A stretch of 64,000 bases of DNA from Solirubrobacteraceae bacterium (GCA_036389485.1 DASVPR010000037.1:22972-86971), one strand, 5' to 3'; shown: positions 50,628 to 64,000, counted from the stretch's first letter. The notes: generated by a model from the letters alone, not told the origin. Program-made: numbers and translations.

Positions 50628-51944
50628 CTAGCGCGGTGGCTCGTCCCGCAGCGACGGGTCCGCGGCGCCCGGGTCGCCGGTGCCGGCCGCCGGGCCCGTG
50701 CCGGGGTTCTCGCCCGGCCGGTCGCCGGTCGCCGGCTGCGAGGGCGCGCCCGCGCCGACCGCCGGCGGCGCGCCGTTGCCCGCCGTGTCCCGGTGGCAGA
50801 GGTTCCGGCCGTCCCGCGGGTCGAACAGGTGCAGCTTGTCCGCGTTCATCCACAGGCGAAGGGACTGGCCGTCCGTCGCCTTCGTCTGCGGGTCCAGCCG
50901 CGCGACGGCCTGGTTCTCGCCCGAGGACGGCAGGTCGGTGAGCCCGGCGTCCGCCGCCAGCTCCTGCAGCTCGTCGGCCTGCGCCGCCCCGCCCTCGTAG
51001 GTGAAGTACGCGTACGTCTCGGAGCCCATGCTCTCCGTCAACACGATCGGGGCGTCGAACTCGAGCGAGTTCGCGTGCCCCTCGGGCGCGAACGCCGCGT
51101 CCTCGAAGTCCTCCGGCCGGACGCCCGCGATCACCTCGCCGGAGGCGTCGACCCCCGACGGCGCGCGGACCTCGCCGAACGGCAGCCGCACGCGCCCGTT
51201 CTCGACCGTCGCGGGGAAGAAGTTCATCGCCGGCGACCCGATGAAGCCCGCGACGAACAGGTTCACCGGGTTGTCGTAGAGGCTCTGCGGCGTGTCGACC
51301 TGCTGCAGGACGCCCGCGCGCATGACCGCGACGCGGTCGCCGAGCGTCATCGCCTCGGTCTGGTCGTGGGTGACGTACACCATCGTCGTGCCGAGCCGCT
51401 GCTGGATCCGCGAGACCTCGGTCCGCATCTGCACCCGCAGCTTCGCGTCGAGGTTCGACAGCGGCTCGTCCATGAGGAAGGCCTTCGGGTCGCGCACGAT
51501 GGCCCGCCCCATCGCGACCCGCTGCCGCTGGCCGCCGGACATGTTCGCCGGCTTGCGGTCGAGGAGCCGCTCGAGGTCGAGGATGCGCGCCGCCTCGTTG
51601 ACCTTCTCTTCGATTTCAGACTCGTCAGCTTTTGCGAGCTTCAGCGGGAACGCCATGTTCTCCCGCACGGTCATGTGCGGGTACAGCGCGTAGGACTGGA
51701 AGACCATCGCGATGTCGCGGTCCTTCGGCGCGCGCTCGTTGACGACCTCGCCGCCGATCGACAGCTCGCCCTCGCTGATGTCGTCGAGCCCCGCGATCAT
51801 GCGCAGCGCGGTCGACTTCCCGCAGCCCGAGGGGCCGACGAGGATCATGAACTCGCCGTCGCCGATGTCGAGGTCCATCTGCTTGACGGCCTCGGTGCCG
51901 TCGGGATACCGCTTGGTGACGCCTCGGAGCTTGATCTCGGCCAC
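50628..51944 (-). CDS. sugar ABC transporter ATP-binding protein (MalK/MsiK/SugC/UgpC type) with a low-complexity C-terminal extension
   Basis: GTG at 51944 follows a GAGAGG Shine-Dalgarno. It has a Walker A (GPSGCGKST), the signature MSGGQRQRVAMGRAI and a Walker B (FLMDEP). Confidence 0.85.
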   Translation of the reverse strand: MAEIKLRGVTKRYPDGTEAVKQMDLDIGDGEFMILVGPSGCGKSTALRMIAGLDDISEGELSIGGEVVNERAPKDRDIAMVFQSYALYPHMTVRENMAFPLKLAKADESEIEEKVNEAARILDLERLLDRKPANMSGGQRQRVAMGRAIVRDPKAFLMDEPLSNLDAKLRVQMRTEVSRIQQRLGTTMVYVTHDQTEAMTLGDRVAVMRAGVLQQVDTPQSLYDNPVNLFVAGFIGSPAMNFFPATVENGRVRLPFGEVRAPSGVDASGEVIAGVRPEDFEDAAFAPEGHANSLEFDAPIVLTESMGSETYAYFTYEGGAAQADELQELAADAGLTDLPSSGENQAVARLDPQTKATDGQSLRLWMNADKLHLFDPRDGRNLCHRDTAGNGAPPAVGAGAPSQPATGDRPGENPGTGPAAGTGDPGAADPSLRDEPPR

Positions 51945-51961
51945 TTGAAGAACCTCTCTGG

Positions 51962-52801
51962 CTAGCCCTTGACCGCGCCCGCCGTGAGCCCGGCCACGAT
52001 GCGGCGCTGGAACAACAGGACGAAGATGATGATCGGGATGGTCACGAGGATGGCGGCGGCGGCGATGTTGCCCGTCGGCGCCGTGAACTGCGATTCCCCG
52101 GTGAAGAACGCGAGCGCCGCCGGCACCGTGCGCGAGTCGTTCGACGACGTCAGCGTGATCGCGAAGAGGAAGTCGTTCCAGCAGAAGATGAAGACGAGGA
52201 TCGCCGCGGTGAACATCCCCGGCGCGGCGAGCGGCGCGATGACCTTGCGGAACGCCTGGAGCGGCGTCGCGCCGTCGACCGCCGCGGCCTGCTCGAGCTC
52301 CCACGGGATCTCGCGGAAGAACGCGACGAGCGTGTAGATCGCCAGCGGCAGCGCGAACGTCAGGTACGGGATGATCAGGCCGATGTAGGTGTCGTAGATC
52401 CCGAGCGCGCGCCACATGTCGAACAGCGGGCCGACCGTGGAGATCGGCGGGAACATCGCGATCGCGAGCGATCCGCCGAGCACGAGCGACTTCCCGGGGA
52501 ACGAGAGGCGCGCGATCGCGTAGGCGGTGAACGACGCCAGGAAGATCGCGATCGTCGTCGCGATGAGCGCGATGATGATCGAGTTGATCAGCGGCTGCAG
52601 CAGCGGGCTGTCGAGGCCGCCCTTGAACAGCGCCTCGTAGTTGTCGAGCGTCCACTCCTTCGGGATCAGCCGCTTGTCGCCGACGGTGGCGGGCGTCTTG
52701 AGCGAGATCATCAACAGCCAGAAGACCGGGAACAGCGCCGCGATGATGATCGCGACGATCCCGACCGACCAGATCGTGTACTCGCGCGTCCCCCGCCTCA
52801 T
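51962..52801 (-). CDS. carbohydrate ABC transporter permease
   Basis: It has an EAA loop ([27 protein letters not shown]) and six TM helices. Confidence 0.85.
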
Positions 52802-53742
52802 CGGTCGTCCCCCTGGCCGGGCACCGCTGCGCCGAAGCCCTTGACGAACAGGAACGCGATCGCCAGGACCATCAGGAAGATCAGGACGGACACGGCGGAG
52901 CCCAGGCCGAGGTTGAGCCGCCCGATCAGCTGGTCGTAGCCGAGGATCGACACCGACTGCGTGTCCTGCGCCCCGCGCGTCATGACGAAGATCGAGTCGA
53001 AGACGCGGAACGCGTCGAGCGTGCGGAACAGCAGCGCGACCGCGATCGCCGGCTTCATCAGCGGCAGCGTGATCCGCGTGAAGCGCTGCCACGCGTTCGC
53101 GCCGTCCACGCGCGCCGCCTCGTAGAGGCCCTCGTCGATCGTCGTCAGCCCGGCGAGCAGGAGCAGCGCCATGAACGGCGTCGTCTTCCAGACCTCGGCG
53201 ACGATGATCACGAACAGCGCGCTGCCCCGCTCTCCGAACCAGGCCTTGTCGTCCGGCGAGAGGAAGGTGTCGTTGACGAAGCCGGTGGCCGGGTCGAACG
53301 CGTACAGCCACGCGAACGCCGCGACGACGGTCACGATCCCGTAGGGGATGAGCACCGCGGTGCGGACCGCGCCCCGCCCGAAGATCGCGCGGTGCATCAC
53401 CAGCGCGAGCAGCATGCCGAGGATCAGCTCGACGACCACCGACACGACGGTGATGAAGGCGGTGTTGCCGACGACCTTCCACCAAAGGTCCGACGACAGG
53501 ACGGTGACGTAGTTGTCGAGCCCGGCGAACCCGCCCTCGTCCGGGAAGCGCAGGTCCTTCTTCTGTAGCGAGAGGACGACCGCGTAGACGATCGGGTACG
53601 CGGTCACGAGCAGCATCACGATCACGGCGGGCGCGCACAGCATCCACGCGAGCTTGCGCTCGGCGCGCGCGCGTTCCGTGACGCCCACCTTCCGGGGCTT
53701 CTCGGCGGCGGCGCCGACCTGGGGCGGTGCGGCGGTGCTCAC
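52798..53742 (-). CDS. carbohydrate ABC transporter permease
   Basis: It has an EAA loop ([25 protein letters not shown]). GTG at 53742 overlaps the substrate-binding protein gene TGA (GTGA). Confidence 0.85.
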
Positions 53743-54986
53743 AGCAGCCCCTCCCGCTTGACCGCCTGCTCGACGAACTCCTTGAGCTTGTCGTAGCTCT
53801 CCTGCGGATCCTTGATCTCGGTGACCGGGTGGACCCCGCGCTGGATGCCGAGGGACAGGTCGGTGTAGGCCGGGGACTCCGACGGGCGAGGACCGGCCTG
53901 CTCGATCGAGTCCCGCAGCGGGTCGACGAAGCCGGAGTACAGCTTCTGGATCCGCGGGTCGTCGTACAGGTCGCTGCGGACCGGCGGCAGGCCGCCCTTC
54001 TCGGCGATCGTGATCTGGTTCTCCGCCTTGATCATGCAGCGGATCGCCTCGTACGCCAGGTCCTTCTTCTTCGAGAACGACGAGACGCCGATGTTGATCC
54101 CGCCGAGCGGCGGCTTGGACTCCTTGTCGGCGTCGACGCGCGGGTACACCGCGGCGCCCATCTCCTTGTAGATCTTCGGGGCGTTCTCCTTCGCCGACGC
54201 GTAGACGAAGGGGTAGTTGACCATGAAGATCGAGTCGCCGGACTCGAAGCCCAGGCGTGCCGAGTCCTCGTTCGAGGTGTCGATCGCGGGCGGGGCGGCC
54301 TTCGAGTTCGCGAGCTTGCCCATGACCTCCAGCGCGCGCTTGGTCGGGCCCTCCTCGAGCGAGACCTCGGTCGGGCCGTTCACGATCTTCGCGCCCGCGG
54401 AGAGGATCATCGCGTTGACCCACACGACGAGGCCCTCGTAGCGGTTGGCCTGGACGTGGATCTTCATGTTCTCGCGCTCGGCGACCTCGATCATCTGGTC
54501 CCAGGTCTGCGGCGGCTTGTCGCCGACCTTGTCCTTGCGGTACCAGAGCAGCTGCGTGTTCGACCAGATCGGGACGGCGTACAGCCGGTCCTCGAACTTC
54601 GCGGTGTCGAGCACGCTCTGGAAGACCTGCGACGAGGCGGGCCCGACCATGTCGTCGGGGACCGGGTCGAGCCAGCCGGCGTTCGCGAACTCGCCGGTCC
54701 AGATGACGTCGAGGCCCATGAGGTCGATCGACTCGTCCTCGGCACCGAGCCGGCGGACGAGCTGCTCGCGCTGCGCGTCGGCTTGGGACGGCAGGAACGT
54801 GAACTCGATCTCGTACTTGCCGCCCGACTCCTGCGAGCACTTCTTGGCGACCTCCTGCGGCCCGCCGCCCGGCTCGTTGAAGATGAAGAAGTTGAGCGTG
54901 TTCGAGCCGCCGCCACTGTCGCCCCCGCAGGCCGCCAGCCCCAGCGAGAGGCAGAGGACGGCCGCGACACAGACCCTGGACAGCAC
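53739..54986 (-). CDS. sugar ABC transporter substrate-binding lipoprotein
   Basis: It has a lipobox ([10 protein letters not shown]). It has family-1 extracellular solute-binding protein features. Gene order is SBP-permease-permease-ATPase, as in LpqY-SugABC-type loci. Confidence 0.8.
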
Positions 54987-55005
54987 GGCGTTCGGTGCTG
55001 TACCC

Positions 55006-56460
55006 CTACATTTCGGAAACGAACCCCTCCCCCGGGGCGAGCCGCGCTGGCGCGCTGCCGCTGCGGCCGTGGGTGTGGCGGACGAGATCGCCGGCGGGCG
55101 GCGCGGGCCGCTCGTCGGGGGCCAGGTTCAGCGCGACGAGGCGCCGGCCGCGGCGGTAGGCGAGCACGCCCTCGGCCGCGTCGACGAGCTCGAGGCCCGG
55201 TGCGAAGCCGCGCCGCAGGGCGATGAGGTCGCGGTACAGGTGCAGCAGCGAGCCGGGGTCGCGCTCCTGCTCGGCGACGCCGCCGCCATGGACCGGCGTG
55301 GCGGGCAGCCAGGGGCGTTCGGCGGTGGTGAAGCCGCCGTGCCGCTCGGCGTCGGTCCACCGCATCGGGTGGCGGAAGGCGTCGCGGCCGAAGCGGTCGA
55401 CCGGCGGATCGCCGCCCGGCCCGTTCGCCATCCCGATCTCGTCGCCCTGGTAGACGAAGACGGTGCCGGGCAGCGTGAGCGCCAGCATCGCCGCGGCGCG
55501 CTCGTTGCCGTGCCCGACGCGGTCCGGGAGCCGGTCGAAGTCGTGGTTCGAGAGCACCCACGCGACGCCGCCGGGCGGCGCGGCCTCGATCGCCGCGCGC
55601 ACGGCGTCGACGTCCCACGGCGAGTGGAACAGCTCGAACGCGAAGGCGAGGTCGAGGTGCTCGAGGTAGGGGCCGAGGCCGGCGCTCGGCAGGTAGACCT
55701 CGCCGACGAGGAAGGCGTCCCCGGCGCCCTCGCGCAGCGCCGCCAGCGCCTCGCGGGTGTCCGGCGCGTTGCGCGAGTGCACGTGCTCGAGCGTCGCGTG
55801 CTCGGGGTGCAGCGGCAGGGGCGGCGGGCCGTTCGCGGGCGGGTCGTCGCGCAGCTGCGGGTCCTTCATCACCCGGTCGATCGCGTCGAGGCGGAAGCCG
55901 TCGACGCCGCGCTCGCGCCAGAAGCGCAGCACCCCGGCCATCGCCTCGCGGACCGACGGGTTGCGCCAGTTCAGGTCCGGCTGCTCCGGATAGAACGAGT
56001 GCAGGTACCACCGGCCGCTGACCTCGTCGCGCGACCACGCGCGCCCGCCGAACGACGCGATCCAGTTGTTCCGCGGCCCGTCGCGATCCGACCAGACGTA
56101 GAAGTCCGGGCGCTCCCGGAACCACGGGTGCGCGATCGAGGTGTGGCAGGGCACGATGTCCATCAGCAGCCTCAGCCCTCTGCCGTGCGCCTCGTCGAGC
56201 AGGGCGTCGAAGTCGGCCAGCGTCCCGAAGCGCGGATCGACGTCCTCGTAGTCGCTGACGTCGTAGCCGCCGTCGGCCATCGGCGACGGGTAGATCGGCG
56301 ACAGCCAGACCGCGTCGGCGCCCAGGGACGCGACGTGGTCGAGCCGCCGGCGGATGCCCAGGAGATCCCCTTCGCCGTCGCCGTCGGAGTCCTGGAAGGA
56401 CCGCGGGTAGATCTGGTAGACGACGGCGTCGCGCCACCACTGCTTGCTCGCGTCCGGCAC
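55006..56460 (-). CDS. GH13 alpha-glucosidase / oligo-1,6-glucosidase-family enzyme
   Basis: Diagnostic sequence: WWRDAVVYQIYPRSFQDSDGDGEGDL, DAVWLSPIYPSP, GVDGFRLDAI (nucleophile), FLVGEVY (acid/base) and LSNHDF. I chose the start at GTG 56460; the ORF is open to 56550. Confidence 0.8.
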   Translation of the reverse strand: MPDASKQWWRDAVVYQIYPRSFQDSDGDGEGDLLGIRRRLDHVASLGADAVWLSPIYPSPMADGGYDVSDYEDVDPRFGTLADFDALLDEAHGRGLRLLMDIVPCHTSIAHPWFRERPDFYVWSDRDGPRNNWIASFGGRAWSRDEVSGRWYLHSFYPEQPDLNWRNPSVREAMAGVLRFWRERGVDGFRLDAIDRVMKDPQLRDDPPANGPPPLPLHPEHATLEHVHSRNAPDTREALAALREGAGDAFLVGEVYLPSAGLGPYLEHLDLAFAFELFHSPWDVDAVRAAIEAAPPGGVAWVLSNHDFDRLPDRVGHGNERAAAMLALTLPGTVFVYQGDEIGMANGPGGDPPVDRFGRDAFRHPMRWTDAERHGGFTTAERPWLPATPVHGGGVAEQERDPGSLLHLYRDLIALRRGFAPGLELVDAAEGVLAYRRGRRLVALNLAPDERPAPPAGDLVRHTHGRSGSAPARLAPGEGFVSEM

Positions 56461-56482
56461 GGCGGGCAACCTTAGTCCGGCC

Positions 56483-57250
56483 GTGCCGACCCCTCTGATC
56501 GCCATCACCACGTCGGAGCTGCGCAAGCCGGGCAGCAGCGACGTCGCCACTCCGGCTCACTCGCAGGAGCCCGGCGGCCGCCGCGACCTCGCGCTCGCGC
56601 TCGCGTACCCGGGGGCCGTGGCCCGCGGCGGCGGCGCGCCGTTGATCGTGCCGCCGTTCTCGTCGGAGCGCGACGTCGAGACGATCCTGGACCGCGTCGA
56701 CGGCGTCATGGTCGCCGGCGGCCCCGACATCGATCCCTGCCTCTACGGCAAGGAGCCGCACCCGGAGCAGGGGCCGACGGACATCGGGCTGGACCGGTTC
56801 GAGATCGGCCTCGTCCGCCGCGCGCTCGAGCGCGACCTGCCGCTGCTCGGGATCTGCCGGGGCGCCGAGGTCCTCAACGTCGCGCGCGGCGGCACGCTGC
56901 TGCAGCACGTCACGGGACACCGCCAGGAGGAGGAGGGCCGGATCCCGACGCAGCATGTCCGGATCGAGGAGGGCTCTCGGGTCGCGGAGATCGTCGGCGC
57001 GACGGAGCTCGAGGTCAACACGTTCCACCACCAGGCGGTGGACGTCCTCGGCGGCGGCGTGCGCGCGGTGGCGTGGGCCGACGACGGCATCGTCGAGGCG
57101 ATCGAGCTCGCCGGGCCCGACTTCGCGATCGGCGTGCAGTGGCACGCCGAGGGGATGATCGACGAGCGCGCGCAATGTTCGCTGTTTGCGAGGTTCGCGT
57201 CCGCAGCACAGCGCTATCGCTCTCGCGCGATGCGCCCGCGCGCGGCATAA
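56483..57250 (+). CDS. gamma-glutamyl-GABA hydrolase-like class-I amidotransferase (peptidase C26, PuuD-like)
   Basis: Diagnostic sequence: PLIAITTS..., GGPDIDPCLYG, LPLLGICRGAEVLNVARGGTL, FHHQAV, and VQWHAE. I chose the start at GTG 56483; the ORF is open from 56444. Confidence 0.7.
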   Translation: MPTPLIAITTSELRKPGSSDVATPAHSQEPGGRRDLALALAYPGAVARGGGAPLIVPPFSSERDVETILDRVDGVMVAGGPDIDPCLYGKEPHPEQGPTDIGLDRFEIGLVRRALERDLPLLGICRGAEVLNVARGGTLLQHVTGHRQEEEGRIPTQHVRIEEGSRVAEIVGATELEVNTFHHQAVDVLGGGVRAVAWADDGIVEAIELAGPDFAIGVQWHAEGMIDERAQCSLFARFASAAQRYRSRAMRPRAA

Positions 57251-57302
57251 CTCGTTCAGAACTCGAGCCTGGCGTGTGAGCGCGCGTCACTCGGGAACCA
57301 AC

Positions 57303-58667
57303 ATGAGTGTGGATCTCGCGACGTACGACCCTGCCGACGTCTTCGACGAGGCCTTCGAGGCCCGAGGAGAGCCCCGGGAGCCGTATGGGGATGTCCTCGC
57401 GCGCCTGGAGCGACATGACCTCGAGCGCACGACGCGCGAGGTGCGCCGGCGGCTGGGCGCGGTGGGCTGCTGCTTCGGGCGCGGGGCCGACGCCGAGCCC
57501 TTCCGCATCGACCTCGTCCCCCGCGTCCTGACCCCCGAGGAGTGGGAGCCGCTGGCCTGCGGCCTCGAGCAGCGCGTGCGCGCGCTCGACGCGTTCATCG
57601 CCGACGCGTACGGCGAGCGGCGGATCGTCGGCGAGGGCGTGCTGCCGGAGCGGATCCTGGCCGGCGCCGAGCACTACGAGCCCGAGCTGGCGCGGCTCCC
57701 GGCGCCGCGCGTGCGGATCGCGCTGGCCGGCCTCGACGTGATCCGGTGCGGCGACGGGTCGTTCCGCGTGCTCGAGGACAACCTGCGCACGCCTTCCGGC
57801 CTCGCCTACGCGTTCGCCGCGCGCGAGGCGGTCGGCTCGCTGCTCGGCCGCGACGGCCCGCTCCCGATCGAGCAGCCGGCGGTCGAGGGGCTCGGCCGCG
57901 CGCTGCGGGCGGCGGCGCCGGGCGGCAAGGACGACCCGCGCATCGCGCTGCTCACCGACGGGCCGTCGAACACCGCGTTCTGGGAGCACGAGCGGCTCGC
58001 GCAGCTGCTCGACATCGAGCTCGTCACGCTCGAGGAGCTGCGGGTCGGGTGCGTCGACGTCGTCTACCGGCGGACCGACGAGGACACGCTGCGCGGCGCG
58101 GGGAACGCCTTCACGCGCGTCGGCCAGGCGCTGCTCGGCGCCCTGCGCGCGGGCACGCTCGCGTGCGTGAACGCGCTCGGCAACGGCGTGGCGGACGACA
58201 AGCTGGTGCACGCGTACGTCGAGGACATGATCCGCTTCTACCTCGGCGAGGAGCCGCGGGTGCGCTCGGTGGCGACCTTCGACCTGACGAGGGCCGGCTG
58301 CCTGGAGGAGGTCCTCGACCGGCTCGACGAGATGGTCGTCAAGCCGCGCGCGTCGCACGGCGGCGAGGGCGTCTTCATCGGGCCGACCGCCGGCGACGCC
58401 GAGCGCGACCGCATCGCCGAGCTGCTGCGCGAGGCGCCGGAGGCCTGGATCGCGCAGGAGACCGTCTACTTCTCGCGCCATCCGACCGTCATCGACGGGA
58501 CGCTCGAGCCGCGCCACGTCGACCTGCGCGCGTTCGTGACGTTCGACGGCGAGACCGCGACCGCCGTGCCGGGCGGGCTGTCGCGCGTGGCGTTCGACGA
58601 GGGCGAGCTGGTCGTCAACTCGTCGCGCGGCGGCGGGGCGAAGGACACCTGGGTGCTGCACGCATGA
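57303..58667 (+). CDS. circularly permuted ATP-grasp type-2 protein (former DUF404/DUF407 family)
   Basis: Diagnostic sequence: FRIDLVPRVL, FRVLEDNLRTPSG, NALGNGVADDKLVHAYVEDMIRFYLGEEP, MVVKPRASHGGEGVFIG, and NSSRGGGAKDTWVL. Confidence 0.7.
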   Translation: MSVDLATYDPADVFDEAFEARGEPREPYGDVLARLERHDLERTTREVRRRLGAVGCCFGRGADAEPFRIDLVPRVLTPEEWEPLACGLEQRVRALDAFIADAYGERRIVGEGVLPERILAGAEHYEPELARLPAPRVRIALAGLDVIRCGDGSFRVLEDNLRTPSGLAYAFAAREAVGSLLGRDGPLPIEQPAVEGLGRALRAAAPGGKDDPRIALLTDGPSNTAFWEHERLAQLLDIELVTLEELRVGCVDVVYRRTDEDTLRGAGNAFTRVGQALLGALRAGTLACVNALGNGVADDKLVHAYVEDMIRFYLGEEPRVRSVATFDLTRAGCLEEVLDRLDEMVVKPRASHGGEGVFIGPTAGDAERDRIAELLREAPEAWIAQETVYFSRHPTVIDGTLEPRHVDLRAFVTFDGETATAVPGGLSRVAFDEGELVVNSSRGGGAKDTWVLHA

Positions 58668-59823
58668 GCCGCTTCGAGCGTCGCCGCCGCTGGAGCGAGT
58701 GGCCGGCCGAGGGCACCCCATGGAGCGTCGGGATCGAGGAGGAGGTCATGCTCCTCGAGCCCTCGACCTGGGCGCTGGCGCAATGCGTCGAGGAGGTCCT
58801 CGAGGCGCTGCCGAGCGACGTGCGGAGCGCGGTCTGCTCCGAGACCCACAGCGGCGCGATCGAGCTGAACACGCGCCCATTCGCGACGGTGGCCGAGGCC
58901 GCGGCCGACCTGGGCTCGCTGCGCTCGCACCTGGCCGGCGTGCTGGACGGGCTCGGCCTGCGTGCCGGCTGCTCGGGGACGCACCCGTTCGCGGACTGGC
59001 AGGAGATGCGGGTCGCGGCGGCCGACCGCCACCAGGAGGTCGCCGGGTCGATGCGCGAGCTGGCGCGGCGAGAGCCGACGTTCGCGCTGCACGTGCACGT
59101 CGCGGTGCCGACGGCGAGCGCGGCGATGTCGGCGGCGAACCAGCTGCGCGCCCACCTGCCGATCCTGCTCGCGGTCTCCGCGAACTCGCCCTACTGGCAG
59201 GGGCGCGACACCGGCCTGGCGAGCGCGCGGACCCCGCTCTTCCAGGCGTTCCCGCGCGTCGGCATCCCCCGCGCGTTCGCGTCGTACAGCGACTGGGTCG
59301 AGACCGTCGACCTCCTCATCCGCTGCGAGGCCTTCCCGGACCACACGTTCCTCTGGTGGGACGTCCGGCTGCAGCCGCGCTACGGCACGGTCGAGGTGCG
59401 GATCATGGACGCGCAGTGCTCGGTCGAGCGCGCGGCGGCGCTGACCGCGCTCGTCCAGTGCCTCGTGCGCCTGGAGGCGACCGAGGGCTTCGCGCCCGCG
59501 CACCTCATCCACGCCCAGGAGGTGCTCGAGGAGAACCGCTTCCTCGCCGCCCGCGACGGCGTCGACGCCGCGCTCATCGACCCGTCGCGCGAGACGCGCG
59601 TCCCCGTCCGCGAGCTGATCGAGCCGATGCTCGAGGCGTGCGCGCCCCACGCCGCCGACCTCCGTTGCGAGGCCGAGCTGGCGCTCGTGCGTCTGCTCGT
59701 CGACGAGGGCGGCGCCCGGCGGCAGCGGATGCTGGGGGGCCCGCGCCGCGACGACCAGCGCCGGCTCGTCGCGACGCTCAGCGAGGCGTTCGCGCCCGCG
59801 CCCGTCCGCGTGCCCGTGCGCGC

Positions 59824-59827
<4 letters not shown>
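58664..59827 (+). CDS. carboxylate-amine ligase, glutamate-cysteine ligase family 2 (YbdK-like)
   Basis: Diagnostic sequence: GIEEEVMLLEP, SGAIELNT, HVHVAVP, NSPYWQGRDTGLASAR, and WWDVRLQPRYGTVEVRIMD. It overlaps the ATP-grasp gene by ATGA. Confidence 0.8.

Positions 59828-64000
<4,173 letters not shown>

What the first reader, a model, noticed from the sequence alone, without database searches (positions are those of the whole stretch)
56483..59827. A three-gene amide-bond cassette combines a C26 gamma-glutamyl hydrolase-like gene, a circularly permuted ATP-grasp gene and a GCS2 (YbdK-type) ligase gene
Two different ATP-dependent carboxylate-amine ligases, a CP-ATP-grasp type 2 and a glutamate-cysteine-ligase family 2 enzyme, are fused by an ATGA overlap. 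A PuuD-like class-I amidotransferase/hydrolase precedes them.

CP-ATP-grasp genes are best known in cassettes with alpha-E and transglutaminase-like genes, which are predicted peptide or tag synthesis systems, and those partners are missing here. Pairing with a GCS2 ligase and a gamma-glutamyl amidase suggests synthesis and turnover of an unidentified gamma-glutamyl-type dipeptide or amide, for example a thiol-cofactor-like or polyamine conjugate. The physiological substrates of both ligase families are largely unknown.
Basis: partly seen in the sequence, partly recalled or inferred. Interest (0 to 1): 0.6.

Follow-up and report, generated by a model that had tools for sequence, protein, structure and literature searches.

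The report
Orphan two-ligase plus amidase peptide operon
Three neighbouring genes in a soil actinobacterium (two ATP-using amide-bond ligases and a gamma-glutamyl-type hydrolase) are kept together across a whole bacterial order and most likely make and cut a small, still unidentified glutamate-type peptide, which gives a first working context to a large orphan ligase family.

Summary
Three co-directional genes occupy 56483-59827: Peptidase_C26, CP_ATPgrasp_2 (cpAG) and a YbdK-type GCS2 ligase, the last two sharing an ATGA overlap.

The linkage is not chance. In 92 related cpAG loci, C26 lies beside cpAG in 67 and GCS2 in 59, in at least 12 gene orders. In Pseudonocardia, GCS2 and cpAG are fused into one 850-aa protein. 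These cpAGs form a clade apart from the classical cpAG/alpha-E/transglutaminase systems, and this genome has no alpha-E.

In relatives the set often gains an AsnO-family amidotransferase (TIGR03104, the NAGGN enzyme). Of 42 AsnO-bearing Actinomycetota, 30 pair AsnO with Ngg. The other 12 lack Ngg; in 11 of them AsnO sits beside cpAG and/or GCS2. This genome has neither AsnO nor Ngg.

The cpAG model's nearest characterised folds are eukaryotic glutathione synthetases. GCS2 plus cpAG therefore mirrors the two-step glutathione logic.

Best reading: sequential ligation makes a small gamma-glutamyl/glutamine-type peptide, and C26 hydrolyses or deprotects it. The product is unknown and nothing has been tested biochemically.

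This scan has already found sister operons on other genomes. This window is the AsnO-less Solirubrobacterales variant. I rate it a new variant of a known kind, of moderate interest.

The parts
56483..57250 (+). Peptidase_C26 / class-I glutamine-amidotransferase-fold hydrolase (255 aa). It is PuuD/SpuA-like but not a PuuD orthologue.
   Evidence: Pfam PF07722 at 6.8e-59. The PuuD equivalog NF008471 scores only 104 bits against a cut-off of 266. The closest solved structures are SpuA 7D4R and PuuD 6VTV. The Cys125-His221-Glu223 triad is invariant in 69 cassette C26 proteins. The GTG start is conserved in the genus.
57303..58667 (+). Circularly permuted ATP-grasp ligase (454 aa), the only cpAG gene in the genome.
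   Evidence: Pfam PF14403 at 4.1e-99. It is the single copy in the genome. PDB 3N6X matches at 1e-88. The AlphaFold model has pLDDT 93. Foldseek gives 3N6X at TM 0.80, then eukaryotic glutathione/homoglutathione synthetases at TM 0.64-0.67, then GspS/TryS. It falls in the clade of cpAGs not linked to alpha-E.
58664..59827 (+). YbdK-type GCS2 carboxylate-amine ligase (387 aa).
   Evidence: Pfam PF04107 at 7.2e-52. TIGR02050 scores 251 bits against a cut-off of 176. It is below every glutamate-cysteine-ligase equivalog cut-off. YbdK 1R8G matches at 2.7e-36, with the HVHV, SPY and GTVEVR motifs aligned. Cassette-linked GCS2s form one clade apart from the four other paralogues of this genome.
58664..58667 (+). 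ATGA start/stop overlap coupling the cpAG and GCS2 genes.
   Evidence: Read directly...cac gca TGA, with ATG AGC in the +1 frame.
56453..56470 (+). Conserved motif tccggcacggcgggcaac, 13-30 nt upstream of the C26 start. It is a candidate promoter or operator; its function is untested.
   Evidence: It is kept in four same-genus loci, including one (L004) where the upstream gene is different. No sigma-70 consensus, terminator or Rfam match was found in 56200-60100.

Best explanation
The three genes are one operon for a small, non-ribosomally made peptide-like metabolite.

Proposed steps:
1. The GCS2 enzyme uses ATP to join a carboxylate to the amino group of an amino acid. By family precedent this carboxylate is the gamma-carboxyl of glutamate.
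2. The circularly permuted ATP-grasp enzyme has the fold of eukaryotic glutathione synthetase. It then uses ATP to join the free C-terminal carboxylate of that product to a second amine.
3. The result is a gamma-glutamyl (or glutamine-type) di- or tripeptide.
4. The C26 enzyme has an intact Cys-His-Glu triad and cleaves a gamma-glutamyl amide bond of the product. This either recycles the pool or removes a transient gamma-glutamyl cap.

In many relatives an AsnO-family amidotransferase additionally amidates the C-terminus, as in the osmoprotectant NAGGN. This organism lacks that gene and would make the non-amidated form. A compatible-solute or nitrogen-rich small-peptide role is the most likely physiology.

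Shown: the family memberships, the intact catalytic motifs, the co-conservation, the fusion, and the exclusive pairing of AsnO with either Ngg or these ligases.

Inferred: the order of steps, the gamma-glutamyl chemistry, the role of C26, and the product and its physiology.
For: (1) Families and intact active sites: and the invariant ATP-grasp residues.

(2) Co-conservation with shuffled order:
- All 7 same-genus genomes keep C26-cpAG-GCS2.
- Other genera have cpAG-C26-GCS2.
- The 92 clade loci show at least 12 architectures, with C26 in 67, GCS2 in 59 and both in 52.

(3) Rosetta-stone fusion: GCS2+cpAG is a single 850-860-aa ORF in Pseudonocardia. NCBI names it 'carboxylate--amine ligase/circularly permuted type 2 ATP-grasp protein', and the best 120 proteins listed all carry both domains.

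(4) The cpAGs with these partners form one clade (SH-aLRT 98) apart from the alpha-E/transglutaminase-linked ones. Cassette GCS2s form one clade apart from the paralogues.

(5) Where GCS2 is not adjacent, a cassette-type orthologue (54-61% identity) sits elsewhere in 3 of 5 genomes tested. G016 splits the set into cpAG-C26 and GCS2-AsnO pairs.

(6) Fold: after 3N6X, the nearest characterised structures are glutathione and homoglutathione synthetases. These extend gamma-Glu-Cys at its C-terminus. Next come Cp1B, GspS and TryS, all small-molecule ligases. The GshA+GshB / GshF logic is described in PMC7278568.

(7) AsnO link:
- The fourth gene in relatives scores 930-950 bits on TIGR03104 against a cut-off of 570.
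- In 401 Actinomycetota genomes, 42 have AsnO. Thirty of these have Ngg adjacent, and none of the 30 has cpAG adjacent.
- The other 12 lack Ngg. In 11 of them AsnO is adjacent to cpAG and/or a GCS2 ligase; the twelfth has the cassette elsewhere.

(8) A hydrolase occupies the same position in each version: M42 peptidase in NAGGN (PMC5563000), S9 peptidase in the fused version, and C26 here.

(9) No precursor-peptide-sized ORF fits in the window's cassette. The gaps are 22 nt, 52 nt and an overlap.
Against: - No member of this cpAG clade or of this GCS2 clade has a tested activity in any paper I could find.
- The window's genome has no AsnO (best 355 bits against a cut-off of 570). The NAGGN analogy therefore reaches this locus only through relatives.
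- Sixteen of 92 clade cpAGs have none of the partners nearby. Two of five genomes tested have no cassette-type GCS2 at all.
- Cassette C26 proteins do not separate cleanly from this genome's other C26 paralogues in a tree, so C26 orthology is less secure.
- The fused Pseudonocardia GCS2 domain belongs to a different GCS2 subfamily from the cassette one.
- The order of the two ligations and the gamma-glutamyl specificity rest on family precedent only.
Confidence: 0.6

Rival explanations
1. Glutamine-dependent amidoligase. The C26 protein is not a degradative hydrolase. It is the glutaminase partner of one of the ligases and delivers ammonia, so that a carboxylate is converted into a carboxamide. 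This would be like MurT-GatD or carbamoyl-phosphate synthetase. In this AsnO-less organism it would stand in for AsnO.
For: - C26 has the class-I glutamine-amidotransferase fold and triad.
- It is almost always directly beside cpAG.
- GCS2 shares its fold class with glutamine synthetase, which uses ammonia as its amine (established knowledge).
- Most Thermoleophilia cassettes lack AsnO.
- The MurT-GatD precedent appears in PMC5871853, as listed.
Against: - To my knowledge, all characterised Peptidase_C26 members are hydrolases of gamma-glutamyl amides (PuuD, SpuA, gamma-glutamyl hydrolase, gamma-glutamyl-CDP-amidate hydrolase). The nearest structures are PuuD and SpuA.
- C26 co-occurs with AsnO in 16 of the 92 clade loci, which would be redundant.
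- In sister systems the same position is held by true peptidases (S9, M42).
Confidence: 0.15
2. Catabolic or detoxifying gamma-glutamylation route, Puu-like. GCS2 gamma-glutamylates an amine taken from outside, and C26 later releases glutamate, as PuuA and PuuD do for putrescine. The ATP-grasp enzyme would be an accessory.
For: - C26 is closest to PuuD/SpuA.
- Pairing of a GS-fold ligase with a C26 hydrolase is the logic of the putrescine, isopropylamine and aniline pathways (established knowledge).
Against: - No oxidase, dehydrogenase or transporter is conserved with the cassette. Recurrent extra neighbours are only an MFS transporter in 9 loci, plus synteny-level genes.
- A second ligase, its fusion to GCS2, and an amidotransferase partner are biosynthetic features, not catabolic ones.
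Confidence: 0.08
3. Protein or ribosomal-peptide modification. The two ligases add amino acids to a protein or a ribosomally made peptide, as predicted for cpATP-grasp/alpha-E/transglutaminase systems or seen in pupylation-like tagging. C26 would remove the modification.
For: - By computational prediction (Iyer et al. 2009, recalled; the paper is not held), the cpATP-grasp family was proposed to act on peptides or proteins.
- GCS2 is distantly related to PafA/Dop (PMC7947786, listed).
Against: - There is no alpha-E, transglutaminase or small ORF in or beside this cassette or in the genome.
- The cpAGs here form a clade separate from the alpha-E-linked ones.
- All characterised structural neighbours act on small molecules.
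- The AsnO partner in relatives belongs to a family that amidates a free dipeptide (PMC5563000).
Confidence: 0.07
4. The three genes are unrelated neighbours acting in separate pathways.
For: Each family has several paralogues in the genome. Sixteen cpAGs of the clade stand alone.
Against: - Adjacency survives at least 12 rearranged architectures across an order and beyond.
- There is a gene fusion.
- Genome-level co-occurrence holds even when the genes are unlinked.
- Chance expectation is below 1% per locus.
Confidence: 0.02

Closest known systems
NAGGN osmoprotectant system (AsnO TIGR03104 - Ngg TIGR03103 - M42-type peptidase; Sinorhizobium meliloti, Pseudomonas aeruginosa, Frankia)
   Same: - The logic is the same: ATP-dependent ligase(s) build a small glutamine-type peptide and a hydrolase is encoded alongside.
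- In relatives of this cassette, the genuine AsnO-family amidotransferase is the fourth gene.
- In Actinomycetota, AsnO pairs either with Ngg or with cpAG/GCS2 ligases, never with both.
   Different: - There is no AsnO and no Ngg in this genome.
- The ligases are unrelated to Ngg: a GCS2 and a permuted ATP-grasp replace a GNAT plus RimK-type ATP-grasp.
- There is no acetyltransferase.
- The hydrolase is a C26 gamma-glutamyl-type amidase, not a metallopeptidase.
Glutathione biosynthesis: GshA + GshB, the fused GshF, and eukaryotic glutathione synthetase
   Same: - A glutamate-cysteine-ligase-superfamily enzyme is paired, and in Pseudonocardia fused, with an ATP-grasp ligase.
- The cpAG model superposes on human, yeast and plant glutathione/homoglutathione synthetases over its whole length (TM 0.64-0.67).
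- A gamma-glutamyl-cleaving enzyme is present for turnover.
   Different: - Sequence identity to glutathione synthetases is only 13-16%.
- The GshB and eukaryotic glutathione-synthetase HMMs find nothing in the genome, although the PF03917 search also rang in none of the 14 control genomes, so that negative proves little.
- GCS2 is below every Glu-Cys-ligase equivalog cut-off.
- The cassette is patchy in the order (found beside C26 in 17 of 41 relatives), unlike a core redox buffer.
- Substrates are unknown.
cpATP-grasp / alpha-E / transglutaminase(-Anbu) systems (COG2308-COG2307-COG1305), including the solved orphan 3N6X
   Same: Same Pfam family (CP_ATPgrasp_2). Foldseek gives 38% identity to 3N6X, and the ATP-grasp residues are conserved.
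   Different: - This is a separate clade.
- The defining partners, alpha-E and transglutaminase, are not found beside the cassette. Alpha-E is absent from the genome, and the transglutaminase query gives only one weak, short match on another contig.
- They are replaced by C26, GCS2 and sometimes AsnO.
GCS2::cpATP-grasp fusion - AsnO - S9 peptidase operon of Pseudonocardia and other Actinomycetota
   Same: The same two ligase families are functionally joined, and the cpAG belongs to the same non-alpha-E clade.
   Different: - There the ligases are fused and the GCS2 domain is of another subfamily.
- AsnO is present.
- The hydrolase is an S9 serine peptidase instead of C26.
PuuA/PuuD-type gamma-glutamylation pathways and the phage amidoligase cassettes (ATP-grasp + GCS2-like ligases + class-II amidotransferase + C26)
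   Same: Both combine a GS/GCS-fold ligase with a C26 gamma-glutamyl hydrolase. The phage cassettes combine the same four enzyme families (earlier notes e1-1994550 and e1-4332501; the Iyer 2009 prediction is recalled, not checked).
   Different: - There are no oxidative steps as in Puu.
- The ATP-grasp here is the permuted GS-like type, not RimK-like.
- The context is chromosomal in Thermoleophilia, not phage.

Membership tests
Peptidase_C26 (PuuD/SpuA/gamma-glutamyl hydrolase family) | Pfam PF07722 match above the gathering score | tested here: met
   199.7 bits against 20.5.
Peptidase_C26 (PuuD/SpuA/gamma-glutamyl hydrolase family) | Cys-His-Glu catalytic triad | tested here: met
   C125 (GICRG), H221 and E223 (WHAE) align to the SpuA/PuuD triad. 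They are invariant in 69 sequences.
PuuD (gamma-glutamyl-GABA hydrolase) orthologue | NCBIfam equivalog NF008471 at or above 266 bits | tested here: not met
   104.5 bits.
CP_ATPgrasp_2 domain family (COG2308) | Pfam PF14403 match above the gathering score, and a permuted ATP-grasp fold | tested here: met
   332.5 bits against 32. Model TM is 0.80 to 3N6X.
cpATP-grasp / alpha-E / transglutaminase system | Adjacent alpha-E (PF04168) and transglutaminase-like genes | tested here: not met
   No PF04168 match anywhere in the 98%-complete genome. tblastn with relatives' proteins finds no alpha-E and only one weak 71-residue transglutaminase-like match on another contig. The flanks are GH13 and serA.
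YbdK-type GCS2 carboxylate-amine ligase | PF04107 and TIGR02050 above their cut-offs | tested here: met
   177 bits against 21, and 251.4 bits against 176.4. It aligns to YbdK 1R8G over residues 18-341.
Glutamate-cysteine ligase (functional equivalogs, including EgtA) | Score above any NCBIfam Glu-Cys-ligase equivalog cut-off | tested here: not met
   The best is NF010043 at 318 bits against 409. EgtA TIGR03444 scores 21 bits against 371.
NAGGN system (AsnO-Ngg-peptidase) | AsnO-family amidotransferase TIGR03104 above 570 bits in the locus or genome | tested here: not met
   The best in the genome is 355 bits, on another contig. The feature is met in relatives' cassettes at 930-950 bits.
NAGGN system (AsnO-Ngg-peptidase) | Ngg bifunctional GNAT/ATP-grasp TIGR03103 | tested here: not met
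   No match in the genome. None of 41 relatives is over the cut-off.
Glutathione synthetase (GshB or eukaryotic GS) | Family HMM match (TIGR01380 or PF03917) | tested here: not met
   No match in the genome. The PF03917 search also rang in none of the 14 control genomes, so that negative proves little. There is only fold-level similarity, TM 0.64-0.67.
Glutathione synthetase (GshB or eukaryotic GS) | Uses gamma-Glu-Cys and glycine as substrates | not testable with these tools
   This needs enzyme assays.

The most novel reading that the evidence does not exclude
The cassette is a GshF-like two-step pathway to a glutathione-like gamma-glutamyl tripeptide thiol. Where AsnO is present, the product would be a glutathione-amide-like molecule. 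It would serve a bacterial order that has no mycothiol, bacillithiol or GshB genes yet encodes GST-like proteins and a gamma-glutamyltranspeptidase. That would make the circularly permuted ATP-grasp family the bacterial counterpart of eukaryotic glutathione synthetase, and it would name the missing cysteine-based thiol of Thermoleophilia.
Probability: 0.12. Interest if true: 0.85.

Novelty: new variant of a known kind. Interest (0 to 1): 0.5.

Why it matters
The circularly permuted ATP-grasp family (COG2308) and the YbdK-type GCS2 family are both large and widespread. Neither has an established physiological substrate.

This locus and its relatives tie one clade of each together, by adjacency in many orders and by fusion. 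They also tie both to a well-defined amidotransferase family, AsnO of the NAGGN pathway. That turns an open annotation problem into a short list of bench experiments on three or four soluble enzymes.

If the product is a new compatible solute, it adds to the small set of peptide osmolytes. If it is a thiol, it would fill the gap left by the absence of mycothiol in Thermoleophilia.

The window's version lacks the amidotransferase. It is therefore a natural control for what the amidation step contributes.

Tried and rejected
- **GH13 link.** The divergent alpha-glucosidase is a neighbour only within the genus. It is synteny, not part of the system.
- **'Orphan' cpAG loci.** Their neighbours are unrelated housekeeping genes: pyruvate carboxylase, a P-type ATPase, an E2 acyltransferase, MFS, aldo-keto reductase, a LeuA-like gene and ComM.
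- **Neighbour clustering over 83 loci.** The only further recurrent item was an MFS transporter (9 loci), plus lineage-level synteny genes.
- **Unlinked AsnO genes in G003, G007 and G008.** They show no consistent partner (GGDEF, GreA, YcaO, S15 peptidase).
- **RNA and signal scans.** There is no Rfam family, sigma-70 consensus or intrinsic terminator in 56200-60100.
- **The genome's other C26 paralogue.** Its context (a MocR-type regulator) is uninformative.
- **Profile search of PDB with the cpAG alignment.** It does not reach glutathione synthetases by sequence. The link is at fold level only.
- **Literature.** Iyer et al. 2009 (PMC3268129) and Sagot et al. 2010 (PMC2906558) are not held. 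What I say of them is from memory or from citing papers. Text searches found no biochemical study of this cpAG clade.
- **AsnO tree.** Ligase-linked and Ngg-linked AsnOs are not deeply separated. This is weakly in favour of a similar substrate, but the backbone is poorly resolved.


Full report
**1. What is there**

The window is about 73% G+C. Relatives retrieved later carry record titles of Solirubrobacterales/Thermoleophilia. Three co-directional genes fill 56483-59827 on the + strand:
- a 255-aa Peptidase_C26 protein (GTG 56483-57250);
- a 454-aa circularly permuted ATP-grasp protein, cpAG (57303-58667);
- a 387-aa GCS2 protein (58664-59827).

Pfam matches are 6.8e-59, 4.1e-99 and 7.2e-52. 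NCBIfam puts the third protein in the YbdK family (TIGR02050, 251 bits against 176). It is below every glutamate-cysteine-ligase equivalog and far below EgtA. The first protein is well below the PuuD equivalog (104 bits against 266).

The cpAG stop and the GCS2 start share ATGA at 58664-58667. C26 and cpAG are 52 nt apart. The C26 GTG start is conserved in position across the genus.

The flanks are a divergent GH13 alpha-glucosidase with a sugar ABC operon, and a convergent serA whose stop overlaps the GCS2 stop (CTAG, 59824-59827). No Rfam family, sigma-70 consensus or intrinsic terminator is found in the region.

That includes the absence of alpha-E and transglutaminase partners beside the cassette. 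The 98%-complete genome has a single cpAG gene and no PF04168 match; a relative's transglutaminase finds only one weak, short match on another contig.

**2. The three genes belong together**

- All seven same-genus genomes keep C26-cpAG-GCS2.
- Other genera of the family and order carry cpAG-C26-GCS2.
- A scan of one genome per species gave 80 further loci, nearly all Thermoleophilia.

Among 92 non-redundant loci of this cpAG clade, I counted partners on the same strand within 4.5 kb:

| Architecture | Loci |
|---|---|
| cpAG-C26-GCS2 | 29 |
| cpAG alone | 16 |
| C26-cpAG-GCS2 (the window's order) | 15 |
| cpAG-C26 | 7 |
| C26-AsnB-cpAG | 6 |
| cpAG-C26-GCS2-AsnB | 4 |
| cpAG-GCS2 | 4 |
| six rarer orders | 11 |

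C26 is present in 67 loci, GCS2 in 59 and both in 52. With 3 C26 and 5 GCS2 genes in 4.67 Mb, the chance expectation is below 1% per locus.

A maximum-likelihood tree of 108 cpAG proteins puts all alpha-E/transglutaminase-linked ones, plus three cyanobacterial ones with no partner found nearby, on one side of a branch (SH-aLRT 98). All C26/GCS2/AsnB-linked ones fall on the other side.

Cassette-linked GCS2 proteins form one clade apart from the four other GCS2 paralogues of this genome. Where GCS2 is not adjacent, a cassette-type orthologue (54-61% identical) lies elsewhere in three of five genomes tested. One genome splits the set into a cpAG-C26 pair and a GCS2-AsnB pair.

The GH13 neighbour is shared only within the genus and is not part of the unit.

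**3. A gene fusion**

In Pseudonocardia, the GCS2 and cpAG domains lie in one open frame of 854-860 codons (L105, L111; Pfam). The protein database holds many such proteins. The best 120 listed, 77-100% identical, all carry both domains, and NCBI names them 'carboxylate--amine ligase/circularly permuted type 2 ATP-grasp protein'.

The fused GCS2 domain belongs to a different GCS2 subfamily from the cassette one. The cpAG clade is therefore associated with GCS2 ligases of two subfamilies. Both facts argue for a joint reaction sequence.

**4. The amidotransferase link**

The 'AsnB' gene that joins the cassette in 19 of 92 loci is a full-length member of TIGR03104. This is the N-acetylglutaminylglutamine (NAGGN) amidotransferase family, AsnO. 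It scores 930-950 bits against a cut-off of 570.

In NAGGN synthesis, Ngg builds N-acetyl-Gln-Gln and AsnO amidates its C-terminus. A peptidase gene usually follows, as summarised in PMC5563000.

I tested whether the ligases here replace Ngg. In 401 Actinomycetota genomes at least 90% complete:
- 42 have AsnO over the cut-off.
- 30 of these have Ngg (TIGR03103) directly adjacent, and in none of the 30 is a cpAG gene adjacent.
- The other 12 have no Ngg.
  - Seven have cpAG immediately upstream of AsnO (one as the fusion).
  - Three have a fused-type GCS2 gene, AsnO and an S9 peptidase without cpAG.
  - One has cassette-type GCS2 next to AsnO, with cpAG-C26 elsewhere.
  - One has an unlinked AsnO with the cassette elsewhere.

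None of 41 relatives in the window's order has Ngg. All six that have AsnO also have a clade cpAG.

In a tree, ligase-linked and Ngg-linked AsnO proteins are not deeply separated. This is weakly consistent with similar substrates.

This supports non-orthologous replacement of Ngg by cpAG and/or GCS2. These ligases would make a small peptide with a free C-terminal carboxylate.

The window's own genome, however, has no AsnO (best 355 bits). Two more distant species of the same genus have it unlinked. The window therefore carries the non-amidating version.

**5. What the enzymes look like**

- *C26.* It keeps Cys125, His221 and Glu223, which are invariant in 69 cassette homologues. It is closest to SpuA and PuuD, both hydrolases of gamma-glutamyl amides.
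- *GCS2.* It aligns to YbdK over its catalytic core, with the conserved motifs in place.
- *cpAG.* The model is confident (pLDDT 93, pTM 0.93). After the uncharacterised family member 3N6X (TM 0.80), its best structural matches over the full length are human, yeast, potato and soybean glutathione/homoglutathione synthetases (TM 0.64-0.67, E 1e-16 to 1e-19). Next come the E-64 ligase Cp1B, YjfC/YgiC, glutathionylspermidine synthetase and trypanothione synthetase.

All of these structural neighbours join the carboxylate of a small molecule or short peptide to a small amine. Glutathione synthetase specifically extends the product of a glutamate-cysteine ligase.

A GCS-superfamily ligase coupled or fused to a GS-fold ligase is thus the glutathione (GshA+GshB, GshF) logic with other parts (background in PMC7278568). 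Sequence profiles do not reach glutathione synthetases. The resemblance is at fold level only.

**6. Most likely mechanism**

1. GCS2 makes an amide, by precedent a gamma-glutamyl-amino acid.
2. cpAG extends its C-terminal carboxylate with a second amine.
3. C26 cleaves a gamma-glutamyl amide bond of the product. This either turns the pool over, as the M42 and S9 peptidases are thought to do in the sister systems, or removes a transient gamma-glutamyl cap, as EgtC does in ergothioneine synthesis.
4. In relatives, AsnO amidates the C-terminus.

I give this 0.6. The steps shown are family membership, intact catalytic residues, linkage, fusion and the exclusive AsnO partnership. The reaction order, the gamma-glutamyl chemistry, the role of C26 and the product are inferred.

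Rivals:
- C26 as the glutaminase partner of an amidoligase (0.15).
- A Puu-like catabolic gamma-glutamylation route (0.08).
- Protein or ribosomal-peptide modification (0.07).
- Unrelated neighbours (0.02).

**7. The thiol question**

The genome has no MshC, MshD, BshC or GshB over the cut-off. None of 41 relatives has MshC. It does have EgtD, six GST_N_3-type domains and one gamma-glutamyltranspeptidase. It has no glutathione-reductase equivalog.

The cysteine-based low-molecular-weight thiol of this order therefore seems to be unknown. The only GS-fold enzyme in the genome is the cpAG of this cassette.

Against a core redox role, the cassette is patchy: it lies beside C26 in 17 of 41 relatives. 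I keep this as the most novel reading not excluded (about 0.12).

**8. Comparison with what is known, and novelty**

I found no biochemical study of this cpAG clade or of its GCS2 partner. The fusion is recognised only by an automatic product name. Iyer et al. 2009, which predicted cpATP-grasp/alpha-E systems and phage amidoligase cassettes, could not be read here.

This scan has already described sister operons on other genomes:
- cpAG-C26-GCS2-AsnB (e1-3919228);
- the fusion-AsnO-S9 operon (e1-4198473, e1-2403643, e1-5210065).

My results agree with these notes. They add the AsnO-less three-gene form, the Ngg-versus-ligase exclusivity count, the glutathione-synthetase fold and the thiol-gene survey.

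The window is a member of an uncharacterised system that works like, but is not a member of, the NAGGN and glutathione pathways. I rate it a new variant of a known kind, with interest 0.5.

**9. Limits**

- Neighbour calls rest on tblastn with reference proteins and on G+C-based ORF filters.
- The genome samples are related and are not independent.
- Trees are quick searches with SH-aLRT support only.

Noticed in passing
G000 whole genome: The genome has no MshC, MshD, BshC or GshB over the cut-offs, and 0 of 41 relatives has MshC. It does have EgtD, six GST_N_3-type domains and a gamma-glutamyltranspeptidase. The cysteine-based low-molecular-weight thiol of Solirubrobacterales appears to be undefined.
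   Followed up: partly
L125, L126, L127 (genomes G094, G247, G319): These large actinobacterial genomes carry a fused-type GCS2 gene, AsnO and an S9 peptidase with no cpATP-grasp at all. It is a one-ligase version of the NAGGN-like operon.
   Followed up: partly
L105:6867-9422, L111:6807-9371: GCS2 and cpATP-grasp are fused in one ORF of about 850 aa in Pseudonocardia, followed by AsnO and an S9 prolyl-oligopeptidase-family gene.
   Followed up: yes
L045:6806-7873, L094:3863-4831: A second, divergent GCS2 paralogue (33-34% identical) sits directly upstream of cpAG, in addition to the cassette GCS2. This gives five-gene sets: GCS2'-cpAG-C26-GCS2-AsnO.
   Followed up: no
L018:5715-6443, L054:11443-12213: A second C26 copy follows the GCS2 gene in one lineage of lower G+C content.
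   Followed up: no
L017:9767-12004 and 8 other loci: An MFS transporter gene lies next to cpAG, mostly on the same strand, in 9 of 83 loci. It may be an exporter of the product; it is absent from the window.
   Followed up: partly
window 56453-56482: The C26 start lies only about 22 nt from the most likely GTG start (56460) of the divergent GH13 gene. An 18-nt motif (tccggcacggcgggcaac) upstream of the C26 start is kept even in a relative (L004) whose upstream gene is different. The transcript may be leaderless.
   Followed up: partly
window 59824-59827: The stop codons of GCS2 (TAG) and of the convergent serA (CTA on the + strand) overlap in the palindrome CTAG, so there is no room for a terminator between the two convergent genes.
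   Followed up: no
window 50628-55127: The sugar ABC transporter operon (MsiK-like ATPase, two permeases and a binding protein) next to the GH13 gene has visibly lower G+C (about 67%) than its surroundings (73-77%).
   Followed up: no
L115:5618-7756 (genome G008): An unlinked AsnO-family gene is preceded by a YcaO-domain gene.
   Followed up: no
G008:C122:2575-4008 and G182:C11:494498-495766: Second cpAG copies in these genomes carry one in-frame TGA each. They may be pseudogenes or sequencing errors.
   Followed up: no
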